NCBI RefSeq assembly: GCF_023256235.1
Contig: NZ_JAGDWY010000067.1
Span: 13,489-52,382, forward strand
DNA length: 38,894 nucleotides
Direction: 5' to 3'
Origin: Desulfurella sp.
GTDB lineage: Bacteria > Campylobacterota_A > Desulfurellia > Desulfurellales > Desulfurellaceae
Made by a program: the position numbers and the translations under genes
The notes under the pieces: generated by a model
What the model saw: only the letters and a program-made list of their open reading frames with translations
What the model was told of the DNA's origin: nothing
Database searches by the model: none
Shown here: positions 1 through 13,405 of the stretch, piece after piece
Layout: each line of letters starts with the position of its first letter
Position numbering within the stretch: the first letter of the stretch is position 1

Positions 1-519
1 TAGTATGGATATTAAAATCAATACAAAGCCGCCAAACAAAAAAAGAAGTATAATTTTCTTTAAAAAATTTAAAAAAAATATATCGGCATCTTTCAACGAT
101 ACGCCTATTAGTATACTAGATAAATTATTAATGGGCGTTTTGGTAAGAAATAGTCGTGTATTGTCTAATTTAACTATTTTTTTATCATTTTCATAAAATA
201 AATTTTTATATTCATTTTTGTTGCATAATATATCATTTGTTTTAGTTTTTACGCAAGCAACTTGTATAAACGGACTTCCTATAATCGTTGCATTAAGAAT
301 TTTTTGAATTCTTTCTGTATTGTTTTGATTAATTGGATTAGAAAGTTCTATTTTTAACTCTTGAGCTTTTCTTTTTCCAAAACTTTCAAAAAGTTTGTAA
401 TATTTAGTTTGAAATTTGCAGTATTCAAATAGAACCAGACCAACACTAAAAAATAAAATAAAAACTAAGTTTAAAAATATAACTTTATAAAATAAAGATA
501 TTTTATGTTTTTTGTTCAT
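1..519 (-). CDS. Membrane-bound sensor/signalling protein, N-terminal part only, runs off the left edge (TM-periplasmic domain-TM; histidine kinase or cyclase-like)
   Basis: Absent from the ORF track. Manual translation from ATG at 519 stays open to position 1: MNKKHKISLFYKVIFLNLVFILFFSVGLVLFEY...FLKKIILLFLFGGFVLILISIL. Two hydrophobic helices flank a ~115-aa soluble loop. Starts 5 nt after the lipoprotein stop. The output domain is not visible. Confidence 0.7.
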   Translation of the reverse strand, partial: MNKKHKISLFYKVIFLNLVFILFFSVGLVLFEYCKFQTKYYKLFESFGKRKAQELKIELSNPINQNNTERIQKILNATIIGSPFIQVACVKTKTNDILCNKNEYKNLFYENDKKIVKLDNTRLFLTKTPINNLSSILIGVSLKDADIFFLNFLKKIILLFLFGGFVLILISIL

Positions 520-524
520 AAAAC

Positions 525-1145
525 CTAATAAGATGCAATTTCCTTTTTAATAAAATTTATGCATTTGTTTTCAAAATAACCGTTTGATGCTAACATATAT
601 TCAGCATTGTGGATTTTTGAAGTAATTATATAATATTTTGGTATAAATTCCAATAATGTTTTGTCTTTTATGTTTGTAGCAAATATTACCATATAAAAAT
701 TCCATGCCACAATACCGCTAAGTGCAGGTTTATCTATCGTGTATTTAGAAATTTGGGAGGGTAGGCTGGTTGAATAGTATTGAGCCACATTAGAAGAGAT
801 ATCAACTTTTAAAAATCCTTCTTTCATACTGGATTTTTCAATATGGTAATTATTGAGTTCACAGAATTTTAGCAATGCTTGCCAAACCATATCAAATGGT
901 GCATTGATTATTGCTTTTTCTCTTATTAAATGCGTTTGTATATGTGTAGTGGAAACGCTATCTAAATTTACTGGAGTTGTTTTTGATTGATACTGCTGTT
1001 TGATTTCTTGAGCAGTTTTTTCTTTATTTTTTTGAAATAAATAAGGAGAATTGGTATGAGGATATACGAGTCCATTTTCCACAGCTCCACTACACGAAGA
1101 TATTGTGGCACATGACAAAATAGCTAATACAAATTTGTATTTCAT
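525..1145 (-). CDS. Putative lipoprotein of unknown function
   Basis: 206 aa; basic N-terminus, hydrophobic stretch and lipobox-like ISS-C18; starts 7 nt after the cytochrome c stop. Confidence 0.7.
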   Translation of the reverse strand: MKYKFVLAILSCATISSCSGAVENGLVYPHTNSPYLFQKNKEKTAQEIKQQYQSKTTPVNLDSVSTTHIQTHLIREKAIINAPFDMVWQALLKFCELNNYHIEKSSMKEGFLKVDISSNVAQYYSTSLPSQISKYTIDKPALSGIVAWNFYMVIFATNIKDKTLLEFIPKYYIITSKIHNAEYMLASNGYFENKCINFIKKEIASY

Positions 1146-1152
1146 ATAGCCC

Positions 1153-1446
1153 TCATTTTTTAAGCGTATGCAAAAATGCAGATATATCTTCTATATTTTG
1201 CACATTGCTCAATTGTGGATTTGATGATTTTACTGGTTTCATCATGCCTACATTGTTAAGAGCCCATTCAATTTTTTTTACTGATTGACCAACTATGTTT
1301 GGGCCTACATTGCCTTGCGCATTACTGCCATGACATGGTGCACATATAGATTCAAATAATTGCCTTCCATGTTGCACGTTTGCCGCATATGAAGAAACTG
1401 GTGTTGCTAAAATTAGTGCTGCTAAACAAAAAAAATACTTTTTCAT
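1153..1446 (-). CDS. Periplasmic monoheme class I cytochrome c
   Basis: Sec signal (MKKYFF...SSYA), GRQLF then CAPCH heme motif, GPNI, candidate distal Met (VGMM), C-terminal helix IEDISAFL. SD GAGGAGGT at 1461-1454 favours ATG 1446 over GTG 1455. Confidence 0.9.
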   Translation of the reverse strand: MKKYFFCLAALILATPVSSYAANVQHGRQLFESICAPCHGSNAQGNVGPNIVGQSVKKIEWALNNVGMMKPVKSSNPQLSNVQNIEDISAFLHTLKK

Positions 1447-1477
1447 AATAAGCACCTCCTCAAGTAACTTAAATTAC

Positions 1478-1533
1478 AAAATATGCTTTTTTTGGAATTT
1501 TTAAATCAGAAAAAATAGATTTTTTGTAGGAAT
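1478..1533 (-). promoter_or_regulatory. Putative promoter and regulator box for the cytochrome c - lipoprotein - sensor unit
   Basis: On the minus strand: ATTCCTACAAA ... TCTGATTTAAAAA (1510-1498) ... TATTTT (-10-like, 1483-1478). Same layout as upstream of the cyc2-like gene. Confidence 0.5.
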
Positions 1534-1538
1534 TTTTT

Positions 1539-1571
1539 TTACAACCCTCAAGTTAGTCTTGAGGGTTGTAA
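1539..1571. terminator. 14-bp perfect hairpin downstream of the cyc2-like gene (terminator or mRNA-stabilising stem)
   Basis: TTACAACCCTCAAG-ttagt-CTTGAGGGTTGTAA. No U-tract follows it in the minus-strand direction, so it is non-canonical. Confidence 0.55.
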
Positions 1572-1606
1572 TTTATAAGGAGGCAGGCTAAGCATAAAAA
1601 AGGAGT

Positions 1607-3004
1607 TTAAAAAGCATATTGAAGTAATACTCTTGTTGTATCATAGTCTGAGGCGTTACCACCCGTAGCTGCAACATCTGGATTATCTTTATTGTAAATA
1701 TCTTCTTCAAGTCGCAGATTTACATTCTGGTATGGATACCATGATAAACCTATTGCTTCGCCAGATGCATTTAAATCTTTTAACTCAGATGAATGCTGAT
1801 AAGTATATTTTGCATATATTCCATATGTTCTATTGTAGTAATAATCTGCATTTATGCTAAAGTTATTTGCAGCCACCGCCGATCCGTTAATTAATTGTCC
1901 GTTATAAATATCGTGTCCGTAAAAAGTTCCATTTCTGTCATGTATGAAAGAGGCAAATATTTCAAAAAGATTATGCGAATCTATATATTGCAATTGACCA
2001 TCTATACCGTATTCTCTGACGCTATCTAAGTACTCTCCATTGCCTGGCGCTTCAGCTGCATTCATGTTTTCATGACCAAAATATCCAAATGTTCCAATTT
2101 CGGTATAAATATGATCAAATTCTGGAAAAAAATATGCTAATCTTCCATATTCGTCTACATTAGATGTTCCATCAAATGTAGCTGAAGCTGATCCTGGATC
2201 GTTTAAAACAACATAAGATGGTGAAGTTTTGCCTACTTGACCACTTGTTGGGTGATATAGGCCAAAAGCTGCATATAGTCCTCCATGAGTAAATCCGCCA
2301 AGCATTGCGTAAATTTCGCCACCTTCTAAAGGACTAGGAGCAAACGCTTCAAAAAACCTATTTCTTGAGCTTATTCCACCTAAAAACCCATGCAACAGGG
2401 CACCCCAGTTGCCAACAGAATTTGTTGGATCACTAAATCCAACCATATCTTCACCTCTTAAGCCAAATGTTAGGTTATATGGTCCTAGTTTTTCATTTGG
2501 ACCAACCAATGCCAAATCAAAACCGCCCAGTGTCAATGACCCACCTTCATCATTAATGCCAGTTAGTTCTGTAAATGTACCTATATTTGGTGCTATTTCA
2601 CCAGCAAAATACAAACTTGAACCTTTAACCCAATTAAATTTTGTTTTACTTGGTACATTTGATCCACCTTTTCTATGCGAATATTCTGATTTAACACGCA
2701 AAGAAAGCATTGGAATTTGGTTTACAGCTAAATTTGGCAAAAACCCTTCCTCTTTTGCCTGTTGTTTGTACTGATTTCTTGAGAACTTAATTAATTTAGA
2801 ATAATCATAAGTATAACCATGGAGCTTAAAATCTCTACCAAAAGGTGTTAAATGTGGAAATACGGTGTGACATACATCACACGACAAGCCTGTTTGTCTT
2901 GAAAATGACGGGATAGCTTTAGCTTTTTGCGTAAAGCTTAAAGTACTTACAGTAAAGATTAGTATGAATAATAAGAAATTGTTAAACTGTAAGTTTTTTG
3001 ACAT
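1607..3004 (-). CDS. cyc2: Cyc2-like outer-membrane monoheme cytochrome c - porin fusion
   Basis: After the signal peptide (AKA): IPSFSRQTGLSCDVCHTVFPHLTPFGRDFKLHGY, matching the Cyc2 N-terminal signature PxFxRQTG-CxxCH-PxLTxxGRxFKL. The rest is Gly/aromatic-rich with amphipathic strands and ends in a beta-barrel-type terminal Phe (LLQYAF). SD AAGGAGG. Confidence 0.85.
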   Translation of the reverse strand: MSKNLQFNNFLLFILIFTVSTLSFTQKAKAIPSFSRQTGLSCDVCHTVFPHLTPFGRDFKLHGYTYDYSKLIKFSRNQYKQQAKEEGFLPNLAVNQIPMLSLRVKSEYSHRKGGSNVPSKTKFNWVKGSSLYFAGEIAPNIGTFTELTGINDEGGSLTLGGFDLALVGPNEKLGPYNLTFGLRGEDMVGFSDPTNSVGNWGALLHGFLGGISSRNRFFEAFAPSPLEGGEIYAMLGGFTHGGLYAAFGLYHPTSGQVGKTSPSYVVLNDPGSASATFDGTSNVDEYGRLAYFFPEFDHIYTEIGTFGYFGHENMNAAEAPGNGEYLDSVREYGIDGQLQYIDSHNLFEIFASFIHDRNGTFYGHDIYNGQLINGSAVAANNFSINADYYYNRTYGIYAKYTYQHSSELKDLNASGEAIGLSWYPYQNVNLRLEEDIYNKDNPDVAATGGNASDYDTTRVLLQYAF

Positions 3005-3033: not shown

Positions 3034-3111
3034 ATCATAAAACTTTTAGATTTTTTTTAAATCAGAGTTTATTAATTTATTTGTAAGAATAAATATTAAA
3101 CTATGTAAGAA
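3034..3111 (-). promoter_or_regulatory. Putative cyc2 promoter with upstream regulator boxes
   Basis: -10 TATGAT at 3039-3034; TCTGATTTAAAAA at 3066-3054; TGTAAGAA direct repeat (+ strand) at 3082 and 3104, a 22-bp period. Confidence 0.5.
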
Positions 3112-6622: not shown

Positions 6623-7852
6623 ATGAGGCGCCTTGTTATTTTAGGTGGTGGTGCAGGTGGAACAATGATGTTAAATAAGTTTTATAATGTTTTGGATAAA
6701 AATGAGTGGCAATTTACAATTATTGATGAATACGAAACTCATTATTATCAACCAGGTTTTTTGTTTATACCATTTGGTATGTATACAAAAAAAGATGTCA
6801 TTAGACCAAAAAGAGATTTTTTCCCGCCAGGCGTTGAAGTTATTCTTGAAAAAATCCAGCTAATAGATCCAGATAAAAATAGAATTATTTTAAATAATAA
6901 TGCAGTGGTATCTTACGATTATTTAATTATAGCAACGGGTTGTAAAATTGATCCCAGTGAAACCGAAGGCTTAAAAGATGATTTGTGGCACAGTAGCATT
7001 TTTGATTTTTATACGATAGAAGGTGCTTTAAAGTTAGCTAATTTTTTTAGACACTTTGATAAAGGAAAATTGGTTTTGCACATTACTGAAATGCCAATTA
7101 AATGTCCGGTTGCACCTCTTGAGTTTGTATTTTTAGCAGATTGGTTTTTTACAAAAAAAGGCGTTAGGGATAAAGTTGAAATAAGTTTTGTTACTCCATT
7201 GCCAGGCGCTTTTACAAAACCAAAAGCTGCAAGCGTGTTAGGTGATTTTTTGCAGAAAAAAAATATTCAGTTAATTCCAGATTTTAGCATAGAGCGTGTG
7301 GATAATGAAAATAAACAAATAATATCTTATGATAATATTAAAGTAAATTTTGATTGTTTGGTGAGTATCCCAACAAATAAAGGAGATGAGGTTATTGCAA
7401 GAAGTAATTTGGGCAATGAGTTAAATTTTATACCCACAGATAAAGAGACGCTTCTTGCAAAAGGTTTTGATAATATATTTGTAATTGGTGATGCAGCTGA
7501 TTTGCCAACATCAAAAGCTGGTTCTGTTGCACATTTTGCCTCAGATATTCTCTTTGAAAATTTTTTGGATGTAATTGAAGGAAAACCACCTAAAGCAAAG
7601 TTTGATGGTCATGCTAATTGTTTTATTGAATCTGGTTTTGGAAAAGGAATTTTGATCGATTTTAATTATGATATAGAACCGCTTCCAGGTAAATTTCCAT
7701 TACCTGCTTTGGGTCCGTTTTCATTATTGCAGGAAACTGCAATGAATCACTATGGAAAAATAATGTTTAGGTGGATGTACTGGAATTATCTATTAAAGGG
7801 TGTTGAACTACCAATAGAATCTCATATGTCTATGGCAGGAAAGAGGGCATAA
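6623..7852 (+). CDS. sqr: Sulfide:quinone oxidoreductase-like flavoprotein (probably type III-like)
   Basis: GGGAGG Rossmann motif, HYYQPG, YDYLIIATG, candidate catalytic Cys in KCPVAPLE and GHANCF, IGDA...SKAG, amphipathic C-terminal helix FRWMYWNYLL. Confidence 0.8.
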   Translation: MRRLVILGGGAGGTMMLNKFYNVLDKNEWQFTIIDEYETHYYQPGFLFIPFGMYTKKDVIRPKRDFFPPGVEVILEKIQLIDPDKNRIILNNNAVVSYDYLIIATGCKIDPSETEGLKDDLWHSSIFDFYTIEGALKLANFFRHFDKGKLVLHITEMPIKCPVAPLEFVFLADWFFTKKGVRDKVEISFVTPLPGAFTKPKAASVLGDFLQKKNIQLIPDFSIERVDNENKQIISYDNIKVNFDCLVSIPTNKGDEVIARSNLGNELNFIPTDKETLLAKGFDNIFVIGDAADLPTSKAGSVAHFASDILFENFLDVIEGKPPKAKFDGHANCFIESGFGKGILIDFNYDIEPLPGKFPLPALGPFSLLQETAMNHYGKIMFRWMYWNYLLKGVELPIESHMSMAGKRA

Positions 7853-7854
7853 AT

Positions 7855-8475
7855 ATGGATGATGTAAAAGACAAATTAAATGCAATAAGCGAAAAACTCG
7901 ATATTGTACTTGAAGAAGTTTATGCACAAAAAACGCATAGAAAATCTATGGAAGATTTAAATGCAGATGCAATGAAAATTGCTGAAAGTATATACGATAT
8001 TGCGTTAAAAAATTTAGAGGAGATATCAGAATACACAAGCATAGAAAGTTTTTTTTACTTTATGAAAAAACTTGCACGCAATATTGATAATCTTACTAAA
8101 TTATTTGGCAGATTGGAAAGCTTAACAGATTTTTGGGAATCACTTGAGCCTTTAACCAGAGAGATAGCCATTTCTACACAAGAGTATTTGGATAATGTTG
8201 AAAAATTAGGTTATTTCACTTTTTTGAAAGAAATTAAAACTTTAATGGATGGTTTTGTAAAAAATATATCGAGTGAAGATTTTAAAAAATTTAGCCAGAC
8301 AATTTTATGTGCAATTGAAGCTATAAAATTAACTTCAAAAGAAGAAATACAACCTCAATCATTTATAAAAGTTATGAAATCACTTAATAACAAAGATGTA
8401 AAATTATCTATACAGTATTTAGTTAGTTTTTTAGAAAATTTTAACAATCTAAAACAAAAAAATTCTATAGTATAG
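7855..8475 (+). CDS. Helical protein, DUF1641-like
   Basis: Predominantly helical-looking; the C-terminal SFIKVMKSLNNKDVKLSIQYLVSFL resembles the DUF1641 motif; this family is typically found next to SQR-like genes. Confidence 0.6.
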   Translation: MDDVKDKLNAISEKLDIVLEEVYAQKTHRKSMEDLNADAMKIAESIYDIALKNLEEISEYTSIESFFYFMKKLARNIDNLTKLFGRLESLTDFWESLEPLTREIAISTQEYLDNVEKLGYFTFLKEIKTLMDGFVKNISSEDFKKFSQTILCAIEAIKLTSKEEIQPQSFIKVMKSLNNKDVKLSIQYLVSFLENFNNLKQKNSIV

Positions 8476-8485
8476 GAGGCTTTTT

Positions 8486-8803
8486 ATGGGAAATTTGCTT
8501 GTTGGAGGCAAAAGTATACCAACAGATGATGAAGGTTACTTGGTTAATTTTGCTGATTGGACAAAGGAGGTTGCTGAAGTAATAGCTAAAGAAGAAGGTA
8601 TTGAAAATTTAACTGATAGACACTGGCTTGTAATTGAATTTATGCAAAAAGAGTTTAAAGAGCATGGAAGCGGACCTTCCATAAGAAAATTAACTAAAGA
8701 AAGCGGTGTTTCAACTAAGGAACTATACGAACTGTTTCCAAAAGGCCCAGCCAAGAAAGCTGCTAAAATTGCAGGTATAAAAAAACCTGTTGGCTGTGTG
8801 TAG
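8486..8803 (+). CDS. TusE/DsrC family sulfur relay protein (single C-terminal Cys)
   Basis: DDEGYL..F.DW, LTDRHW.VI, LYELFPKGPAKKAAKIAGIKKPVGCV. Penultimate Cys present; the second DsrC Cys is replaced by Ala. Confidence 0.9.
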   Translation: MGNLLVGGKSIPTDDEGYLVNFADWTKEVAEVIAKEEGIENLTDRHWLVIEFMQKEFKEHGSGPSIRKLTKESGVSTKELYELFPKGPAKKAAKIAGIKKPVGCV

Positions 8804-8811
8804 GTGCATGT

Positions 8812-9267
8812 ATGAATAAAGTATCGATAATTATTTCAAAAGGTTCTTTGGATGGCGTATATCCTGGTTTAATTATGGCTAATGGGGCTTTAATGGAAGG
8901 AATTGAAGCTATATTGTTTTTTACTTTTTTTGGCTTAGAAGCTATTATTAAATCTCGCATGGATAAATTAAAAGTTGCAACCGTAGGTAATCCTGCCTTA
9001 CATATACCCTCTTTAGTTGGTATATTGCCTGGTATGTCAAGTTTTGCGAGTTTAAAGATGAAAAAAGAAATGGACAAACTGGATATACCACCCGTTGGTG
9101 AGTTTTTGGAAATGATACATGATGCTGGTGGCAAGATTTATGCTTGCAAGGCTACAGTGGATATGTTTCATTTAAAAAAGGAAGATTTTTGCGAGCAACT
9201 TGATGATATTGTAACAGTGGGTCAGTTTTACGAAATGTCATTAGATGGACATATTATATTTACATAG
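8812..9267 (+). CDS. DsrE2/DrsH-like sulfurtransferase
   Basis: SIIISKGSLD, FFTFFGL, GGKIYACKATVDMF with the conserved Cys. Confidence 0.85.
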   Translation: MNKVSIIISKGSLDGVYPGLIMANGALMEGIEAILFFTFFGLEAIIKSRMDKLKVATVGNPALHIPSLVGILPGMSSFASLKMKKEMDKLDIPPVGEFLEMIHDAGGKIYACKATVDMFHLKKEDFCEQLDDIVTVGQFYEMSLDGHIIFT

Positions 9268-9289
9268 CCCCCTCTTTGTTTGCACATAC

Positions 9290-9318
9290 CTCCCTGCTTG
9301 AAAGCGGGGAGCTTTTTT
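9290..9318 (+). terminator. Rho-independent terminator of the sqr operon
   Basis: Stem CTCCCTGCT-TGAA-AGCGGGGAG (one G-U pair) followed by CTTTTTT. Confidence 0.8.
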
Positions 9319-9326
9319 GTTAATAT
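9298..9326 (+). promoter_or_regulatory. cutA promoter embedded in the upstream terminator
   Basis: TTGAAA 9298-9303, 17 bp, TAATAT 9321-9326, extended TG at 9318-9319; 6 nt separate the -10 from the ATG. Confidence 0.55.
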
Positions 9327-9332
9327 AAAATT

Positions 9333-9653
9333 ATGAGTGATTTTGTAATTATTCTTACAACTTCAGATAAAAAAGAAACGCTTGAGCGTATTGCTACTTA
9401 TTTAGTTGAACAAAGACTTGCAGCATGTTGTCAGATTGTAGGCCTAATTGAAAGTTTTTATATTTATGAAGGTAAATTTGAAAATACAAATGAGTACTTA
9501 TGCATAATAAAAACACATAGTAGTTTGTATAACAAAGTCGAAAGCGCAATAAAGCTTTTACATAATTACAAAACTCCTGAGATAGTAGAGATTGATATTC
9601 AAAAATTAAATTTAGACTACCTAAAATGGATGAAAGAAGTATTAAATATTTGA
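9333..9653 (+). CDS. cutA: Divalent-cation tolerance protein CutA
   Basis: LVEQRLAACCQ, ESFYIYEG, IKT, LHNYKTPEI, YLKWM motifs; 106 aa. Confidence 0.92.
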   Translation: MSDFVIILTTSDKKETLERIATYLVEQRLAACCQIVGLIESFYIYEGKFENTNEYLCIIKTHSSLYNKVESAIKLLHNYKTPEIVEIDIQKLNLDYLKWMKEVLNI

Positions 9654-9821
9654 TTTTTTTAATTTTTGAGCGATTTTTAAAAATTTAATTTCACGTAAAC
9701 TTTAAGTCAAATGTTTTTTGGTAATATTTTGGTAGCCTATATTGCCTATAAGCTAATTTGCACTATTTTTTAAGTATTGGGATTTTAAAACTAAATAGAA
9801 TTTTTATGTTAAATTTATTTT

Positions 9822-10487
9822 ATGTTAAATTTAGAAGAAATTCAAAATCTTGATATAAAAAAATTAGAAATACTTGATAGATCATTTTTTGTCAGAAACG
9901 ATATACAGCAAATAGCAAGACAACTTTTGGGTAAATTACTTATTACAAATACAAATGAGGGCTTAAGTGGAGGTATAATTTGCGAAACAGAAGGTTATTT
10001 TGGTTCAATTGATCTTGCTTGCCATGCTCATAAAAATAAAATTACAAAAAGAAATGCTGCTTTATATAAGGAAGGTGGCATATTGTATGTACACACATGC
10101 AGAGGTCATGTGATGCTGAATGTAGTGACAAATAAAGAAAATATACCACATGGTATTTTAATAAGGGGTATTGTTCCGATAATAGGTATTGATTTGATGA
10201 GAAAAAGAAGAGGATTTATAAAAGATTCAATGCTTGCAAATGGCCCAGGAAAGCTTACGAAGGCTTTGGGTATTACAATGCAACATAATATGCTAAAGAT
10301 TTGTAAAGACAAATTTGACATTTTTTTGGAATTACCAGAAATTTGTATACTGGATTTAAATTTATATATTGATAAGAAAATGATTAAACAAACTCCACGC
10401 ATTGGTGTAGATTACGCAAAGGCATGGGCAAATACACCTTTGAGGTTTGTGATTTTGCCACAATTGTTCCATAAAATACAATTTTGA
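9822..10487 (+). CDS. mpg: DNA-3-methyladenine glycosylase (MPG/AAG family)
   Basis: ARQLLGK, ICETEGY, D.ACHA, GILIRG, LANGPGKLTKALGI, PRIGV...PLRF. Confidence 0.9.
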   Translation: MLNLEEIQNLDIKKLEILDRSFFVRNDIQQIARQLLGKLLITNTNEGLSGGIICETEGYFGSIDLACHAHKNKITKRNAALYKEGGILYVHTCRGHVMLNVVTNKENIPHGILIRGIVPIIGIDLMRKRRGFIKDSMLANGPGKLTKALGITMQHNMLKICKDKFDIFLELPEICILDLNLYIDKKMIKQTPRIGVDYAKAWANTPLRFVILPQLFHKIQF

Positions 10488-10581
10488 AGAATCATTTACT
10501 AAAATTTTTTACACAAATATTCCATAAAATTTTCATATTATGGTTTATATACTTAGCAGAACAAAATAAGGAGGTTTTAAA

Positions 10582-10776
10582 ATGTTGGATGATTGGCATG
10601 TAATGGTTGTGGTTTTGATATTTGCTTTGATTTTTGGAGCAAAAAAGTTGCCAGAGATAGGTTCAGGTATAGGTAAAGGTATAAAAAATTTCAAGGAATC
10701 ATTAAAGGATGAAGAAAAAACACCAAATAGCGAGGATACAAAAATAATTGAAGACAAAACACATTCAAAAGATTGA
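10582..10776 (+). CDS. tatA: Twin-arginine translocase subunit TatA/E
   Basis: TM helix followed by FGAKKLPEIGSGIGKGIKNFK; SD AAGGAGG. Confidence 0.92.
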   Translation: MLDDWHVMVVVLIFALIFGAKKLPEIGSGIGKGIKNFKESLKDEEKTPNSEDTKIIEDKTHSKD

Positions 10777-10916
10777 GTGATTTGTAAGTTATAAGTTTTA
10801 AAAAACTAATCATGTTAAACGGATTGTAAAGAATGAATGTGTTAGGTTTTGTCTCGTCAGTAGTTTTTGTTGTAATTTCATTTTTTTTAATTTTTTTTGT
10901 ATTTTGAAGGTGGTTT

Positions 10917-11009
10917 ATGCAAAATTCACCATTTAGCATCGGAATTGGGGTATTTATTTTTTTTGTTTTATCTGGTGGACTTATTCTTTTGTTTTTAAAA
11001 AAGAAATGA
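10917..11009 (+). CDS. Putative 30-aa single-TM small protein
   Basis: MQNSPFSIGIGVFIFFVLSGGLILLFLKKK; SD-like GAAGG at 10906-10910, 6 nt before the ATG; below the ORF-track length cutoff. Confidence 0.4.
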   Translation: MQNSPFSIGIGVFIFFVLSGGLILLFLKKK

Positions 11010-11022
11010 ATCGATTAAAATT

Positions 11023-12966
11023 ATGAAAAAAATTCTTATCATAGTTGGTTTATTTTTCTTTTTAATTTTTATGGGATTGGGTTCGTTTGCATATACGCTT
11101 TATTTGCAGACAAATAAAGATTTTAATAATCTTTTAAATGGAGAAAAGTTTTCAAAACCCACTAAAATCTATGCTCAAAATGGTCAATGTATAGCCATTA
11201 TAGGACCACAAAACAGACAGATTGTAACGTTTAATCAAATTGATTTAAATATGAAAAAAGCTATACTGGCGGCAGAGGACAGCAGATTTTATCAACATGG
11301 ACCAGTAAGTTTTAGAAGCATTCTGAGGGCAGCTTTTGAAGATTTAATACATGGTAAAGTTGTGCAGGGTGGCAGCACCCTCACGCAGCAACTTGTCAAA
11401 AATTTATATTTGACGCCTAAAAAGACGCTTTATAGAAAACTCAAAGAAGCGGTATTATCATACAAAATATCAAGGCATCTTACAAAAAATCAAATACTTA
11501 CCTTGTATTTAAATACAGTTTATTTTGGAAACGGCGCTTATGGTATTCAAATGGCAAGTAAATCATATTTTAATGAAAATGCTGACCAATTAACCATACC
11601 TCAAGCAGCTATGCTTGCCGGTCTTGTCCAGGCGCCGACATTGTACGATCCTTATGTTAACCCTTCTCTTGCAGAAAAAAGAACACTTTATGTCTTAGAA
11701 AGAATGTATGAAGATAAGTTTATTACAAAAAAACAGTACTGGCAGGCAGTACATTCTAAAATTGTTCTAAGAAAGCAAAGTTCGTTTTATGCTTATGGAT
11801 ATCAATATAAAGATGGATATTTTATTGAACATGTTAAAAATTGGCTTGTTAGACATTATGGTGAAGAAGTGGTAGATAAAGGTGGTTTAAAAGTATATAC
11901 AACTTTAAACCCGAAACTTCAATATTATGCTTATCTAGCAGTCAAAAATGGTATAGCAAGGCTCACAAAAAATCTTAAAGCTCCATATTACGTAGTAGAT
12001 GTTAGAAAGTGGTTGATTGAGCATTATGGTAAAAATTCTGATCTGGAAGCAGATTTGATATCTGTAAATCCAAAAAATGGCTATGTAGAGGCTTTGGTGG
12101 GTGGAGTTAGCTATAAAAAAACTCAGTATGATAGGGTAATTCAAGCTCAAAGGCAGCCAGGTAGCGCTTTTAAGCCTATTGTTTATCTTACAGCGTTAGA
12201 AGAAGGCTTTACTCCATTGGATAAGATTGATGATGAGCCAGTTGAGTATAGATACGGCAATAAAGTTTGGGCACCTCAAAATTATACGTTAAGATTTCAT
12301 GGTCCTATTACACTTGAGTATGCTCTTGCACATTCTGTGAATGTTGCGACAGTAAAATTACTGGATAAAATTGGTATTGAAAATGTTATTGTCAATGCAA
12401 GAAGATTGGGTATTACAGAACCAATACCGCATAATTTAACTATAGCCCTTGGTTCATCTTCTGTAACATTGGAGCAACTAAGCCGTGTATATTGCACAAT
12501 AGATAATTATGGTTTAAAACCAAAATTAATTTTTATAAGAAAGATTTACAATAAAGACAAACAATTGATCTACGAAAATAATCCTAAATTAGTAAGAGTT
12601 TTTCCTAAAGATTTAGGATTTATCTTAACAAAAATGTTAGAAAAAGTTGTAAAAGAAGGCACAGGTGTCTACGCAAAAGCACTTGGAAGACCTATAGCAG
12701 CAAAAACTGGCACATCCAATCATGCTAGAGATAACTGGTTTATGGGTTTTACACCTCAACTTGTAACTGGCGTTTGGGTTGGATTTGATGATTATAAACC
12801 TTGTGGACCTTACGCAGTAGGCGCTACAATGGCTTTGCCTATATGGCTAAATTATATGCAAAATGCTTTATCTGGAAAGCCTGTGGAAAATTTTCCCGTG
12901 CCAAATCATTTACCACTTATAATGTCAAATTTTTTGTTTAAAAAAACACACATGCAGTCTGGTTGA
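11023..12966 (+). CDS. Class A penicillin-binding protein (PBP1A family)
   Basis: N-terminal TM; glycosyltransferase motifs EDSRF, GGSTLTQQL, RKLKE, YLN; transpeptidase motifs SAFK, SVN, KTG. Confidence 0.95.
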   Translation: MKKILIIVGLFFFLIFMGLGSFAYTLYLQTNKDFNNLLNGEKFSKPTKIYAQNGQCIAIIGPQNRQIVTFNQIDLNMKKAILAAEDSRFYQHGPVSFRSILRAAFEDLIHGKVVQGGSTLTQQLVKNLYLTPKKTLYRKLKEAVLSYKISRHLTKNQILTLYLNTVYFGNGAYGIQMASKSYFNENADQLTIPQAAMLAGLVQAPTLYDPYVNPSLAEKRTLYVLERMYEDKFITKKQYWQAVHSKIVLRKQSSFYAYGYQYKDGYFIEHVKNWLVRHYGEEVVDKGGLKVYTTLNPKLQYYAYLAVKNGIARLTKNLKAPYYVVDVRKWLIEHYGKNSDLEADLISVNPKNGYVEALVGGVSYKKTQYDRVIQAQRQPGSAFKPIVYLTALEEGFTPLDKIDDEPVEYRYGNKVWAPQNYTLRFHGPITLEYALAHSVNVATVKLLDKIGIENVIVNARRLGITEPIPHNLTIALGSSSVTLEQLSRVYCTIDNYGLKPKLIFIRKIYNKDKQLIYENNPKLVRVFPKDLGFILTKMLEKVVKEGTGVYAKALGRPIAAKTGTSNHARDNWFMGFTPQLVTGVWVGFDDYKPCGPYAVGATMALPIWLNYMQNALSGKPVENFPVPNHLPLIMSNFLFKKTHMQSG

Positions 12967-12971
12967 AAAAT

Positions 12972-13000
12972 TTGAAAAAGCTTTTCAAGTTTAGTATACT
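12972..13000 (+). promoter_or_regulatory. Sigma70-type promoter for the queF-ior run
   Basis: TTGAAA 12972-12977, 17 bp, TATACT 12995-13000; inverted repeat TTGAAAA-AGC-TTTTCAA overlaps the -35. Confidence 0.6.
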
Positions 13001-13009
13001 TTATTGAGT

Positions 13010-13405
13010 ATGAGATATGGCGAGGAAGCAATATTAAACAATAAACTTGAAAAGTGGGAAAATAAGAATGAATTTAAATTTGAAATACATATTGAGTTTG
13101 GAGAATTTACTTGTTTGTGTCCACGCAGTGGTTATCCAGATTTTGCCACAATAAGGATTAAATACGTACCGGATAAATACGTTGTAGAGCTTAAAAGCTT
13201 AAAATTATTTTTAAATAGTTTTAGAAACAAGTATATATCGCACGAAGATTCAATAAATTTAATTTATTCCACTTTGTTTAATTTTTTAGAGCCCATTTAT
13301 CTTGAAATTATAGGAGATTTTAACCCCAGGGGTAATGTAAAAACTATAATAAAAATTGATTCTAATATGCAGGGGGAGTATTTTGAGAAAAATAATAAGC
13401 GGTAA
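13010..13405 (+). CDS. queF: NADPH-dependent 7-cyano-7-deazaguanine reductase (type I QueF)
   Basis: [15 protein letters not shown] (catalytic Cys/Asp), QueF motif [21 protein letters not shown] 13010 preferred over TTG 13004. Confidence 0.93.

What the first reader, a model, noticed from the sequence alone, without database searches (positions are those of the whole stretch)
1..3004. Cyc2-like cytochrome-porin module with its own cytochrome c, lipoprotein and sensor in an apparent anaerobic sulfur-cycling genome
Seen: a monoheme CxxCH within the Cyc2 N-terminal signature, fused to a predicted beta-barrel. Downstream on the same strand are a periplasmic cytochrome c, a lipoprotein and a two-TM sensor-like protein. 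Established: Cyc2 is the outer-membrane Fe(II) oxidase of Acidithiobacillus and of neutrophilic iron oxidisers, passing electrons to periplasmic carriers. Inference: this is a compact, regulated trans-outer-membrane electron conduit. It is divergent from a sulfur/methionine gene block in a genome with no sign here of aerobic iron oxidation, so it may exchange electrons with S0/polysulfide, FeS or Fe(III) minerals or partner cells, possibly in the reducing direction. A Cyc2 homologue alone does not establish iron oxidation.
Basis: partly seen in the sequence, partly recalled or inferred. Interest (0 to 1): 0.85.

Follow-up and report, generated by a model that had tools for sequence, protein, structure and literature searches.

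The report
Cyc2 wired to a quinol oxidiser
In an anaerobic sulfur-reducing bacterium with no cytochrome c oxidase, the outer-membrane 'iron oxidase' gene cyc2 heads a conserved ten-gene cluster that also encodes a Rieske/cytochrome b complex, so it likely runs backwards as a dedicated wire exporting respiratory electrons to an outside acceptor, probably ferric iron.

Summary
Confirmed and larger than reported. The 465-aa gene (3004-1607, minus) is a Cyc2-family cytochrome-porin: signature motif, predicted 16-stranded barrel, provisionally Cluster 2. The genome is a Desulfurella by its closest named homologues. The four genes are the first of ten on one strand: cyc2, cytochrome c, lipoprotein, histidine kinase, response regulator, ccsA, resB, a DOMON-domain membrane protein, Rieske protein and cytochrome b; the last six lie left of the window. 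The order is kept in three congeners (split over two contigs in one). Among the 37 genomes of the phylum, the Rieske/b/DOMON trio occurs in 13: four Desulfurella, all with cyc2, and nine sister-family genomes without cyc2, where it sits with N2O reductase or S/N-oxide reductase genes. No genome has a heme-copper oxidase over cut-off. Best reading (0.6): menaquinol -> Rieske/b -> DOMON heme -> cytochrome c -> Cyc2 -> extracellular high-potential acceptor, most likely Fe(III) at low pH. Direction and substrate are inferred, not shown. Direct S0 reduction fits poorly. Cultured D. amilsii carries the genes, annotated as hypothetical, so the test is easy.

The parts
1607..3004 (-). cyc2: signal peptide, monoheme CxxCH domain (C42-H46) fused to a predicted 16-stranded porin barrel ending in Phe
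1539..1571 (-). conserved hairpin (14 bp here, 10-16 bp in congeners) in the cyc2-cytochrome c spacer; followed by an A-run, not a U-run, on the coding strand, so likely an mRNA-stabilising or processing hairpin rather than a terminator
   Evidence: z -5.1, -4.4, -6.9, -2.9 in the four genomes; stems differ in sequence and length
1153..1455 (-). periplasmic class I monoheme cytochrome c (likely start 1446); 85-97% identical in congeners; paralogue on contig C59 (47%)
   Evidence: (PF00034, PF13442)
525..1145 (-). lipoprotein of no named family (lipobox ISSC18); weak likeness to BamC/NlpB-type domains; role unknown, perhaps assembly or anchoring
   Evidence: PF06804 E 0.019, under cut-off; unnamed lipoprotein clusters 0.93-0.94; BamC cluster 0.82, lead only
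1..519 (-). N-terminal two-helix sensor half of a HisKA_3-type histidine kinase. The cluster goes on left of the window on contig C20 (window = C20:13489-52382): kinase C-terminus 12813-13373, LuxR-type response regulator 12166-12816, ccsA 11223-12155, resB 10142-11236, DOMON membrane protein 9054-10022, Rieske 8430-9041, cytochrome b 7194-8420
3082..3111 (-). direct repeat TCTTACA, 22-bp spacing, upstream of cyc2; invariant in 4 of 4 genomes and the only such pair in the genome; candidate response-regulator site (untested)

Best explanation
This is a Cyc2-family cytochrome-porin at the head of a conserved ten-gene cluster with its own cytochrome c, heme-attachment system, two-component regulator and Rieske/cytochrome b/DOMON complex, which together likely form an outward electron wire from menaquinol to an extracellular high-potential acceptor, most likely Fe(III) in acidic water. 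Shown from sequence and comparison: gene content and order; intact heme, Rieske and Qo-site motifs; absence of the searched cytochrome c-fed sinks; the either/or pairing of the trio with cyc2 or with N2O/S-N-oxide reductase genes. Inferred: H2, acetate or sulfide (via the nearby type III SQR) reduce menaquinone; the Rieske/b complex oxidises menaquinol by a Q-cycle and conserves energy; the Met/His DOMON domain binds heme b and stands in for cytochrome c1; the small cytochrome c carries electrons across the periplasm to the Cyc2 heme; Cyc2 reduces dissolved or chelated Fe(III) at the cell surface; the kinase/regulator pair switches the cluster on through the upstream repeat. Inferred history: cyc2 came sideways from an acid-spring/mine lineage and took the place of a periplasmic terminal reductase beside an inherited quinol-oxidising complex.
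For: Ten genes on one strand with gaps of -14 to 160 bp; colinear in G001 and G002, split over two contigs in G004, and cyc2 to resB in metagenome contig L114. Cytochrome b keeps four His ligands and PDWY, Rieske keeps both boxes, DOMON keeps M89 and H180 in all aligned copies; Rieske's closest solved relative is 1NYK/3FOU (E 1e-26; recalled as the Thermus menaquinol:cytochrome c reductase Rieske); the DOMON model matches dopamine beta-hydroxylase and cellobiose dehydrogenase cytochrome domains (E 2e-7 to 7e-4). Futalosine menaquinone genes in 6 of 6 congeners. Phylum survey, 37 genomes: cyc2 in 4; DOMON in 13, the same 13 with the close cytochrome b; nosZ in 8 of the 9 non-Desulfurella carriers and 0 of 6 Desulfurella; the ninth (G017) has an S/N-oxide reductase next to the trio. 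In G008 the trio lies between a TorA/BisC-family reductase with a TorC-like monoheme and nosD/napGH-like genes leading to nosZ. COX1-family over cut-off 0 of 37; multicopper family 0 of 5 and diheme peroxidase 0 of 6 Desulfurella. bd oxidase and NarG are present but are quinol-fed, so Fe(II) oxidation through a reversed Q-cycle would net no charge translocation (established bioenergetics, my inference). Precedent: quinol -> bc1 -> cytochrome c -> Cyc2 -> Fe3+ is the proposed anaerobic route of At. ferrooxidans (PMC8790237, PMC7735108; passages). D. amilsii grows to pH 3 and comes from iron-rich river sediment (PMC5317093, passages).
Against: No activity, expression or midpoint potential is shown. 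The D. amilsii genome paper names only sulfur and thiosulfate as acceptors (passages); I could not see the species description, so Fe(III) may have been tested and found negative. Co-location with a Rieske/b complex does not fix direction: At. ferrooxidans runs bc1 in reverse during Fe(II) oxidation. Other Cyc2 genes sit beside unrelated Rieske/cytochrome b genes in genomes that do have COX1-family genes (5 of 5 Cyc2-bearing genomes tested, three of them with such neighbours). The genome has other multiheme cytochromes (HAO-like octaheme, 10- and 12-heme ExtM-like) that could take electrons from the small cytochrome c. The 37 genomes are kin and many are incomplete; the four cyc2 carriers are one acquisition. 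A 160-bp spacer with a hairpin follows cyc2, so one transcript is not shown.
Confidence: 0.6

Rival explanations
1. Inward conduit: Cyc2 oxidises Fe(II), FeS or a cathode-like donor, and the Rieske/b complex runs in reverse to reduce menaquinone for NarGHI or cytochrome bd, or the cytochrome c feeds the octaheme directly.
For: All three biochemically tested Cyc2-family proteins oxidise Fe(II) (PMC8406198, section 13); 'Ca. Ferristratum' co-expresses cyc2 and narG on Fe(II) (same section). narG has no internal stop in G000, G001 and G002; bd oxidase in 5 of 5. Rieske box II has Ser and Tyr (CPCHQSMY) against Ser and Phe in 3 of 4 aligned sister-family copies, which would raise the potential (recalled rule) and suits either direction.
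Against: No cytochrome c-fed oxidase, NO reductase, N2O reductase, copper nitrite reductase or peroxidase found, so there is no downhill, energy-conserving branch; reverse Q-cycle plus Nar or bd nets zero charge (inference). The orthologous trio serves terminal reductases in the sister family.
Confidence: 0.17
2. Outward conduit used as a redox valve or for another partner: it discharges electrons from sulfide/S0 oxidation (type III SQR 3.6 kb away) or from disproportionation to Fe(III), Cu(II), Mn oxides, humics or partner cells without supporting growth by itself.
For: SQR type III is syntenic with the cluster in G000, G001, G002 and G004 and is lost with it in G003. Desulfurella disproportionates sulfur by an unknown mechanism.
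Against: SQR is on the other strand, behind four methionine/MOSC genes, and joint loss is one deletion, not independent evidence. G003 keeps the TusE/DsrE2 genes. The proteomics paper does not name these loci in text or in the two supplements held.
Confidence: 0.13
3. Direct S0/polysulfide reduction at the cell surface through Cyc2.
For: The genus respires sulfur, and D. amilsii benefits from contact with solid sulfur (PMC6378623, passage).
Against: Electrons leaving a Rieske centre are far more positive than the S0/H2S couple (established values, recalled). A complete congener lacks the whole cluster, and Table S8 lists the block as unique to D. amilsii among the sulfur-respiring Desulfurellaceae compared there.
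Confidence: 0.04
4. Chance assembly: cyc2-cytochrome c-lipoprotein-regulators and the Rieske/b trio are neighbours on an island but work separately (e.g. Cyc2 in metal sensing, uptake or detoxification).
For: Function of most Cyc2 homologues is untested. Gaps of 160 and 119 bp could hold separate promoters.
Against: Order kept at about 80% DNA identity between G000 and G002; a second, dedicated ResB/CcsA pair (47-50% identical to the housekeeping pair) sits in the middle; the trio is found in Desulfurella only together with cyc2 (4 of 4; both missing in 2 of 2).
Confidence: 0.06

Closest known systems
Cyc2 of Acidithiobacillus ferrooxidans (rus operon, Cluster 2) and its proposed anaerobic Fe3+-reducing use
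   Same: Fused monoheme-porin with the family motif; adjacent cytochrome c; proposed quinol -> bc1 -> cytochrome c -> Cyc2 -> Fe3+ route (PMC8790237, PMC7735108; passages).
   Different: There cyc2 is in an operon with rusticyanin and aa3 oxidase (PMC10654088, passages) and reduction is a reversal of an oxidising chain. Here no oxidase or rusticyanin lies in the cluster, no COX1-family gene is in the genome, and the quinol-oxidising complex is co-encoded. The canonical protein was not on hand for direct comparison.
Rieske/cytochrome b/DOMON trio of the sister family (f2) beside nos and TorA/BisC-type genes
   Same: Same three genes, same order, 55-59%, 51-58% and 35-43% identity; neighbouring monoheme cytochrome c.
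   Different: Partner is a periplasmic N2O or S/N-oxide reductase, not an outer-membrane Cyc2; no cyc2 found in 21 of 21 f2 genomes. This trio is itself not described in the papers my search found.
Thermus/actinobacterial menaquinol:cytochrome c reductases (1NYK Rieske; QcrAB)
   Same: Best Rieske match in PDB; best NCBIfam hits QcrA/QcrB, under their cut-offs.
   Different: No cytochrome c1/QcrC gene in the cluster; a DOMON-domain protein with four hydrophobic helices sits in its place.
Cyc2 clade of Hydrogenobaculum, Kryptoniota/Ignavibacteria-like and Deltaproteobacteria MAGs
   Same: 40-46% identity, one clade with support 1.0.
   Different: Neighbours differ; the three genomes of this clade tested (L010, L011, L012) have COX1-family genes.

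Membership tests
Cyc2 family | AXPXFAR[Q/K][T/Y] motif upstream of a single CXXCH, PXL downstream | tested here: met
   AIPSFSRQT..CDVCH..PHL; one Ala->Ser variant, also in other homologues
Cyc2 family | Length over 365 aa with N-terminal signal peptide | tested here: met
   465 aa; hydrophobic helix 7-27 and AKA-IP site read from sequence and model; no SignalP run
Cyc2 family | 16-stranded porin barrel fused to the heme domain | tested here: met
   AF2 model and fold searches; a prediction, not a structure
Cyc2 family | Homology to accepted Cyc2 proteins | tested here: met
   Profile A1 finds a match in 41 of 41 genomes of the class of Zetaproteobacteria locus L022; two homologues carry the label iron:rusticyanin reductase
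Cyc2 Cluster 2 | Placement by FeGenie HMMs or the reference tree | tested here: inconclusive
   FeGenie HMMs and the three characterised proteins not on hand. Own trees (99 and 86 rows): P0001 clade is a long-branched sister (0.99) of a broad group holding Caballeronia, Methylocystis and an At. ferrooxidans plasmid homologue, apart from both Zetaproteobacteria clades; HMM bits 165 vs 68 vs 30. Cluster labels of the anchors are my inference from PMC7029218 and PMC10654088.
Cyc2 iron oxidases | Oxidises Fe(II), with a downhill route to a terminal oxidase | not testable with these tools
   Activity untested; COX1 family not found in 5 of 5 Desulfurella searched
Rieske/cytochrome b complexes | Cytochrome b with four His ligands and a PEWY-type Qo motif; Rieske with two boxes and disulfide Cys | tested here: met
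   (HH..H, H..H, PDWY; CTHMGC, CPCH)
Rieske/cytochrome b complexes | Third redox subunit (cytochrome c1/f/cc) | tested here: not met
   No c1-type gene in the cluster; DOMON protein with invariant Met/His instead; heme binding untested
System II cytochrome c maturation | ResB (CcsB) plus CcsA with WGGYWSWD-type domain | tested here: met
   PF05140, PF01578 over cut-off; second copy per genome only in cyc2 carriers among 5 searched

The most novel reading that the evidence does not exclude
Desulfurella built a minimal, dedicated Fe(III)-respiring chain by plugging a borrowed Cyc2 into an inherited c1-less Rieske/cytochrome b/DOMON-heme complex in place of N2O reductase: a single-heme metal-reduction pathway without Mtr, Pcc or nanowire multihemes, and a Cyc2 whose only physiological job is reduction.
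Probability: 0.4. Interest if true: 0.85.

Novelty: new variant of a known kind. Interest (0 to 1): 0.7.

Why it matters
cyc2 is widely read as a marker of Fe(II) oxidation, and whether Cyc2 can be a physiological Fe(III) reductase has stayed open because At. ferrooxidans carries both directions in one cell. Here a cultured anaerobe has cyc2 with a quinol-oxidising complex and no cytochrome c oxidase, and a close congener lacks the cluster: a natural test pair. A positive result would add Fe(III) respiration to a genus known for sulfur, link acid-sediment sulfur and iron cycles, caution against counting cyc2 as iron oxidation, and describe a Rieske/b complex with a DOMON heme in place of cytochrome c1.

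Tried and rejected
Pfam and NCBIfam give no family for Cyc2, lipoprotein or sensor half; no PDB sequence match for Cyc2 or the DOMON protein. Complex prediction of Cyc2 with the lipoprotein: no verdict, not evidence either way. Sequencing runs: no RNA holder listed. Sigma-70 promoter/terminator scan at chance level (53 vs 60.9 expected; 6 vs 4.0). GC and GC3 of cluster genes mostly within the genome's spread, so no sign of recent transfer. No short homologue of the DOMON protein's three C-terminal helices. The profile search for wider DOMON relatives was still queued at submission, so the trio's range outside this phylum is open. The first tree run timed out; FastTree was used, support values are SH-like, 3 of 29 Zetaproteobacteria loci and about half of the loci were left out, and the second tree kept 12 of 26 universal Zetaproteobacteria rows. 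Earlier findings: none. The plus-strand ORF 2409-2774 is antisense to cyc2 and was treated as a shadow. Cluster 1 membership rejected provisionally (N-terminal match only).
Full report
Observation. The four minus-strand ORFs are present as described. The 465-aa protein has the Cyc2 signature of Keffer et al. (PMC8406198; passages, sections 12 and 13 and supplement 7 read) with one Ala->Ser change, found once in the genome's six frames. An AlphaFold2 model from 121 homologues (pLDDT 82.3) is a barrel whose best matches are 16-stranded porins. A profile of these homologues finds a match in 41 of 41 genomes of the class that holds a Zetaproteobacteria locus, where Cluster 1 cyc2 is reported in all lineages (PMC7029218, passages). 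Family membership is secure.

Host. The window is C20:13489-52382 of a 1.86-Mb, 32% GC genome, 97% complete. The nearest named homologues are Desulfurella proteins at 90% or more, including D. amilsii OSS41111.1. The next group (40-46%) holds Hydrogenobaculum, Kryptoniota/Ignavibacteria-like and Deltaproteobacteria MAG proteins. In my trees these form one clade (support 1.0), a long-branched sister of a broad group with Caballeronia, Methylocystis and an At. ferrooxidans plasmid homologue, apart from two Zetaproteobacteria clades. Cluster 2 is the provisional call; the reference HMMs and characterised proteins were not on hand. cyc2 was found in 4 of 37 genomes of the phylum, all one genus, which points to lateral acquisition (inference).

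The real unit is ten genes. Left of the window, on the same strand, follow the rest of the kinase, a LuxR-type regulator, ccsA, resB, a DOMON-domain membrane protein, a Rieske protein and cytochrome b, with gaps of -14 to 160 bp. The order is the same in G001 and G002, and in G004 across two contigs; metagenome contig L114 shows cyc2 to resB. The complete congener G003, 95% identical to this genome from window 7859 onward, lacks everything from there to beyond cytochrome b, with two transposase-like ORFs (IS607-like, label recalled) at the break; G005 (83% complete) shows no match either. The ResB/CcsA pair is a second copy, 47-50% identical to the pair beside the octaheme genes. Table S8 of the D. 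amilsii genome paper lists loci 2044-2054 as unique genes in the order regulator, kinase, hypothetical, cytochrome c553, hypothetical, O-acetylhomoserine sulfhydrylase, and on to SQR (PMC5317093; passages and supplement 8 read); by that order 2049, 'hypothetical', is cyc2 (my mapping).

Redox anatomy. Cytochrome b keeps its four His ligands and PDWY; the Rieske keeps both boxes, with Ser and Tyr in box II; the DOMON domain keeps Met89 and His180 in 16 of 16 aligned rows and its model matches heme-binding cellobiose dehydrogenase cytochrome domains after dopamine beta-hydroxylase. No cytochrome c1 gene is present, so the DOMON heme likely takes that role (inference). Menaquinone genes are in 6 of 6 congeners.

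Direction. The trio is in 13 of 37 genomes: four Desulfurella, each with cyc2, and nine of 21 sister-family genomes, none with cyc2. Eight of the nine have nosZ; the ninth has an S/N-oxide reductase beside the trio. I read 8 of the 9 loci: nos accessory-like genes adjoin the trio in 7 and an S/N-oxide reductase-like gene in 5; HMM labels come from G008 and G017 only, the rest by likeness of length and start. No genome of the 37 has a COX1-family match over cut-off; three have weak sub-cut-off hits. Desulfurella genomes searched also lack nosZ, multicopper and diheme peroxidase families but have bd oxidase and NarG, which draw on quinol. So in this order the complex is paired either with a periplasmic terminal reductase or with Cyc2. 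Fe(II) oxidation through a reversed Q-cycle to Nar or bd would net no charge movement, whereas forward flow to an outside acceptor would conserve energy (my reasoning from textbook stoichiometry). At. ferrooxidans is proposed to use bc1, cytochrome c and Cyc2 for anaerobic Fe3+ reduction (PMC8790237, PMC7735108; passages). Reported Cyc2 potentials are +208 and +560 mV; an acceptor must lie near or above that, which fits Fe(III) at low pH and not S0 (recalled couples).

Against. Nothing is measured. The genome paper names only sulfur and thiosulfate as acceptors; the species description was not seen. The proteomics paper (PMC6378623; passages and two held supplements searched) does not name these loci, and it notes poor recovery of membrane proteins; its full data were not visible. 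Cyc2 with narG is the signature proposed for nitrate-coupled Fe(II) oxidation in 'Ca. Ferristratum'. Cyc2 also lies near unrelated Rieske/cytochrome b genes in 5 of 80 genome loci and 2 of 78 metagenome loci, and the genomes tested have COX1-family genes (5 of 5). Other multihemes could be sinks. The carriers are kin.

Novelty. Searches for Desulfurella+cyc2 (3 papers, 1 mention of cyc2 each), Hydrogenobaculum+cyc2, DOMON+Rieske+cytochrome b+quinol, Desulfurella with ferric iron or ferrihydrite and cyc2 with iron reduction/Rieske listed no paper whose title or abstract describes this cluster; most were seen as listings only, and the library lacks most subscription papers and the figshare trees, where the protein may already be a leaf. 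Each part is of a known kind; the wiring is a new variant. Verdict: real, conserved, likely an outward conduit (0.6), interest 0.7.

Noticed in passing
window 6623-9267: Type III sulfide:quinone reductase (NF049943 over cut-off), DUF1641, TusE/DsrC and DsrE2 genes; the SQR and the metY-MOSC-metX-metW genes are lost together with the cyc2 cluster in G003, which keeps DUF1641/TusE/DsrE2.
   Followed up: partly
L104-L109, L111, L112 (sister family f2): N2O reductase clusters with an embedded Rieske/cytochrome b/DOMON trio, often next to a TorA/BisC-type reductase with a TorC-like monoheme that lacks the tetraheme part; suggests N2O and S/N-oxide respiration in this family.
   Followed up: partly
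L055, L071, L078, L083, L012, L117, L161: Separate cases of cyc2 next to or near Rieske and cytochrome b genes (b fused to diheme c in four Bacteroidota/Ignavibacteria loci), about 30% identical to the Desulfurella cytochrome b: the pairing seems to have arisen more than once.
   Followed up: partly
L212, L213 (plasmids CP084173.1, NC_015179.1; also NC_009469.1): Cyc2-like gene plus c-type cytochrome beside transposases on plasmids of At. ferrooxidans and Acidiphilium; Acidiphilium is an Fe(III) reducer (recalled).
   Followed up: no
G000:C89:6690-18478: NrfH/NapC-like tetraheme, HAO-like octaheme, a second ResB/CcsA pair and narGHJI; nitrate respiration genes in a genus described as sulfur-respiring; narG has stops in G003.
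   Followed up: partly
G000:C51:66241-68867 and C16:30483-32186: 12-heme and 10-heme ExtM-like cytochromes, the first with an ExtP-like cytochrome b; all under cut-off, function unknown.
   Followed up: no
G000:C59:3901-4344: Paralogue of the cluster's cytochrome c (47% over 77 aa) with a Gly/Met-rich N-terminal extension, next to a heavy-metal ATPase-like gene.
   Followed up: no
L201:16096-18325 (G003): Two-gene mobile element (200-aa resolvase-like and 544-aa TnpB-like ORFs; labels recalled) at the point where the cluster is missing.
   Followed up: no
G000, genome-wide: 148 N-gaps (1,920 N) interrupt genes including the kinase, the Rieske N-terminus and cydA; these are assembly gaps, not evidence of pseudogenes.
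   Followed up: yes
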